63,642 nt of DNA from an uncultured Candidatus Saccharibacteria bacterium (GTDB lineage: Bacteria; Patescibacteriota; UBA1384; JAMDBS01; DAOVQR01). Below, piece by piece: positions 11,857-12,045 of this stretch. Both the position numbers and the translations under genes were made by a program. The stretch spans positions 1 to 63,642 of the forward strand of contig CAYZSW010000006.1 of NCBI GenBank assembly GCA_964481135.1, given 5' to 3'. The notes under the pieces are model-generated. The model did no database searches and was not told the DNA's origin. It saw only the letters and a list, made by a program, of their open reading frames with translations. Every line of letters begins with the position of its first letter. The first letter of the stretch is position 1.

Positions 11857-12045
11857 TGGAGCCCACTATTGGATTTGAACCAATAACCTCTTCCTTACGA
11901 AGGAATTGCCCCGTCTGCCAAGCGCCTGGAGCCGATAGTCGGAATCGAACCGACAACCTACGGTTTACGATACCGTTGCTCTACCGTTAAGCTATATCGG
12001 CGCTAAGCGACTGGCGGGCAGGTCTACCATTAAAGCTAAGTGGGC
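11857..12045 (-). other. interrupted tRNA-Thr(CGU)-like gene: 5' piece 12045..12023, 3' piece 11909..11857, split in the D stem by a 113-nt insert
   Basis: Minus-strand reading gives GCCCACT-TA-GCTT-TAATGGTA-GA // GC-A-ATTCC-TTCGTAA-GGAAG-AGGTT-ATTGG-TTCAAAT-CCAAT-AGTGGGC-T-CCA. The acceptor stem is a perfect 7 bp, and the T arm and anticodon loop are canonical. Position 14 is T rather than the usual A. Confidence 0.6.
11927..12001 (-). tRNA. tRNA-Thr (anticodon CGT), CCA encoded
   Basis: Hand-folded 75-nt cloverleaf: GCCGATA-TA-GCTT-AACGGTA-GAGC-A-ACGGT-ATCGTAA-ACCGT-AGGTT-GTCGG-TTCGATT-CCGAC-TATCGGC-T-CCA. All stems are Watson-Crick. Confidence 0.9.

What the first reader, a model, noticed from the sequence alone, without database searches (positions are those of the whole stretch)
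11857..12045. A complete tRNA-Thr(CGU) nested inside the D-arm of a second tRNA-Thr(CGU)-like gene, clamped by GC-rich complementary arms
On the minus strand, 12045->12023 reads GCCCACT-TA-GCTT-TAATGGTA-GA, and 11909->11857 reads GC-A-ATTCC-TTCGTAA-GGAAG-AGGTT-ATTGG-TTCAAAT-CCAAT-AGTGGGC-T-CCA. Joined, these make a 76-nt cloverleaf with a perfect 7-bp acceptor stem, a restored D stem (GCTT/GAGC), a canonical T loop and anticodon CGT. The 113 nt between the two pieces have three parts. The first is a 21-nt arm, CCTGCCCGCCAGTCGCTTAGC. The second is an intact 75-nt tRNA-Thr(CGU) (11927..12001). The third is a 17-nt arm, GGCGCTTGGCAGACGGG. The arms can pair (CTGCC/GGCAG, CCAG/TTGG, CGC/GCG), so the inner tRNA sits in the loop of a GC-rich hairpin planted in the outer D stem. 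The inner and outer genes share only about two thirds of their positions, so this is not a simple recent duplication. I see three readings. (a) It is an intron-like or split-tRNA arrangement. RNase P/Z release of the inner tRNA would leave two outer halves held together by the GC clamp, which recalls archaeal split tRNAs but is not something I know from bacteria. (b) A palindromic element carrying a replacement tRNA-Thr inserted into and killed the resident gene. T instead of the near-invariant A at outer position 14 argues for decay. (c) It is an assembly chimera. The arm sequence resembles the CCTGTCYGCC / GGCRGACRGG core of the GC islands at 33.2 and 56.9 kb and the junction of the tRNA-Asp repeats.
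Basis: partly seen in the sequence, partly recalled or inferred. Interest (0 to 1): 0.9.

Follow-up and report, generated by a model that had tools for sequence, protein, structure and literature searches.

The report
tRNA gene split by tRNA cassette
In an uncultured, AT-rich Patescibacteria genome, a threonine tRNA gene is cut in two by a 113-base GC-rich palindromic insert that carries its own complete tRNA of the same anticodon; it is most likely a mobile "disrupt-and-replace" cassette, not a bacterial tRNA intron.

Summary
On the minus strand, 12045..12023 plus 11909..11857 join into a 76-nt tRNA-Thr(CGU). A 21-nt arm, a complete 75-nt tRNA-Thr(CGU) and a 17-nt arm lie between tRNA positions 23 and 24. 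Six independent assemblies carry the identical sequence, so it is not a chimera.

Relatives explain it:
- L092 has the outer tRNA uninterrupted at the same syntenic site (72/76 identical, including the "odd" U14).
- L087 has the inner tRNA type standing alone at that site (71/75).
- L113, an unrelated Patescibacteria contig, has a homologous arm-tRNA-arm cassette behind a different tRNA-Thr 5' relic cut in the D arm.
- L092 also has a relic collinear with E1-arm-arm-E2 head but without an inner tRNA.

The arms belong to the GC-rich hairpin family of islands C and D in this window. No bulge-helix-bulge motif, intron model, target duplication, integrase or endonuclease is present.

Best reading (0.68): a palindromic cassette carrying a foreign tRNA-Thr(CGU) allele recently split the resident gene. 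The inner tRNA is the working copy. This locus is a hotspot of serial disruption and replacement.

A functional split or spliced outer tRNA is unlikely (about 0.05) but not excluded.
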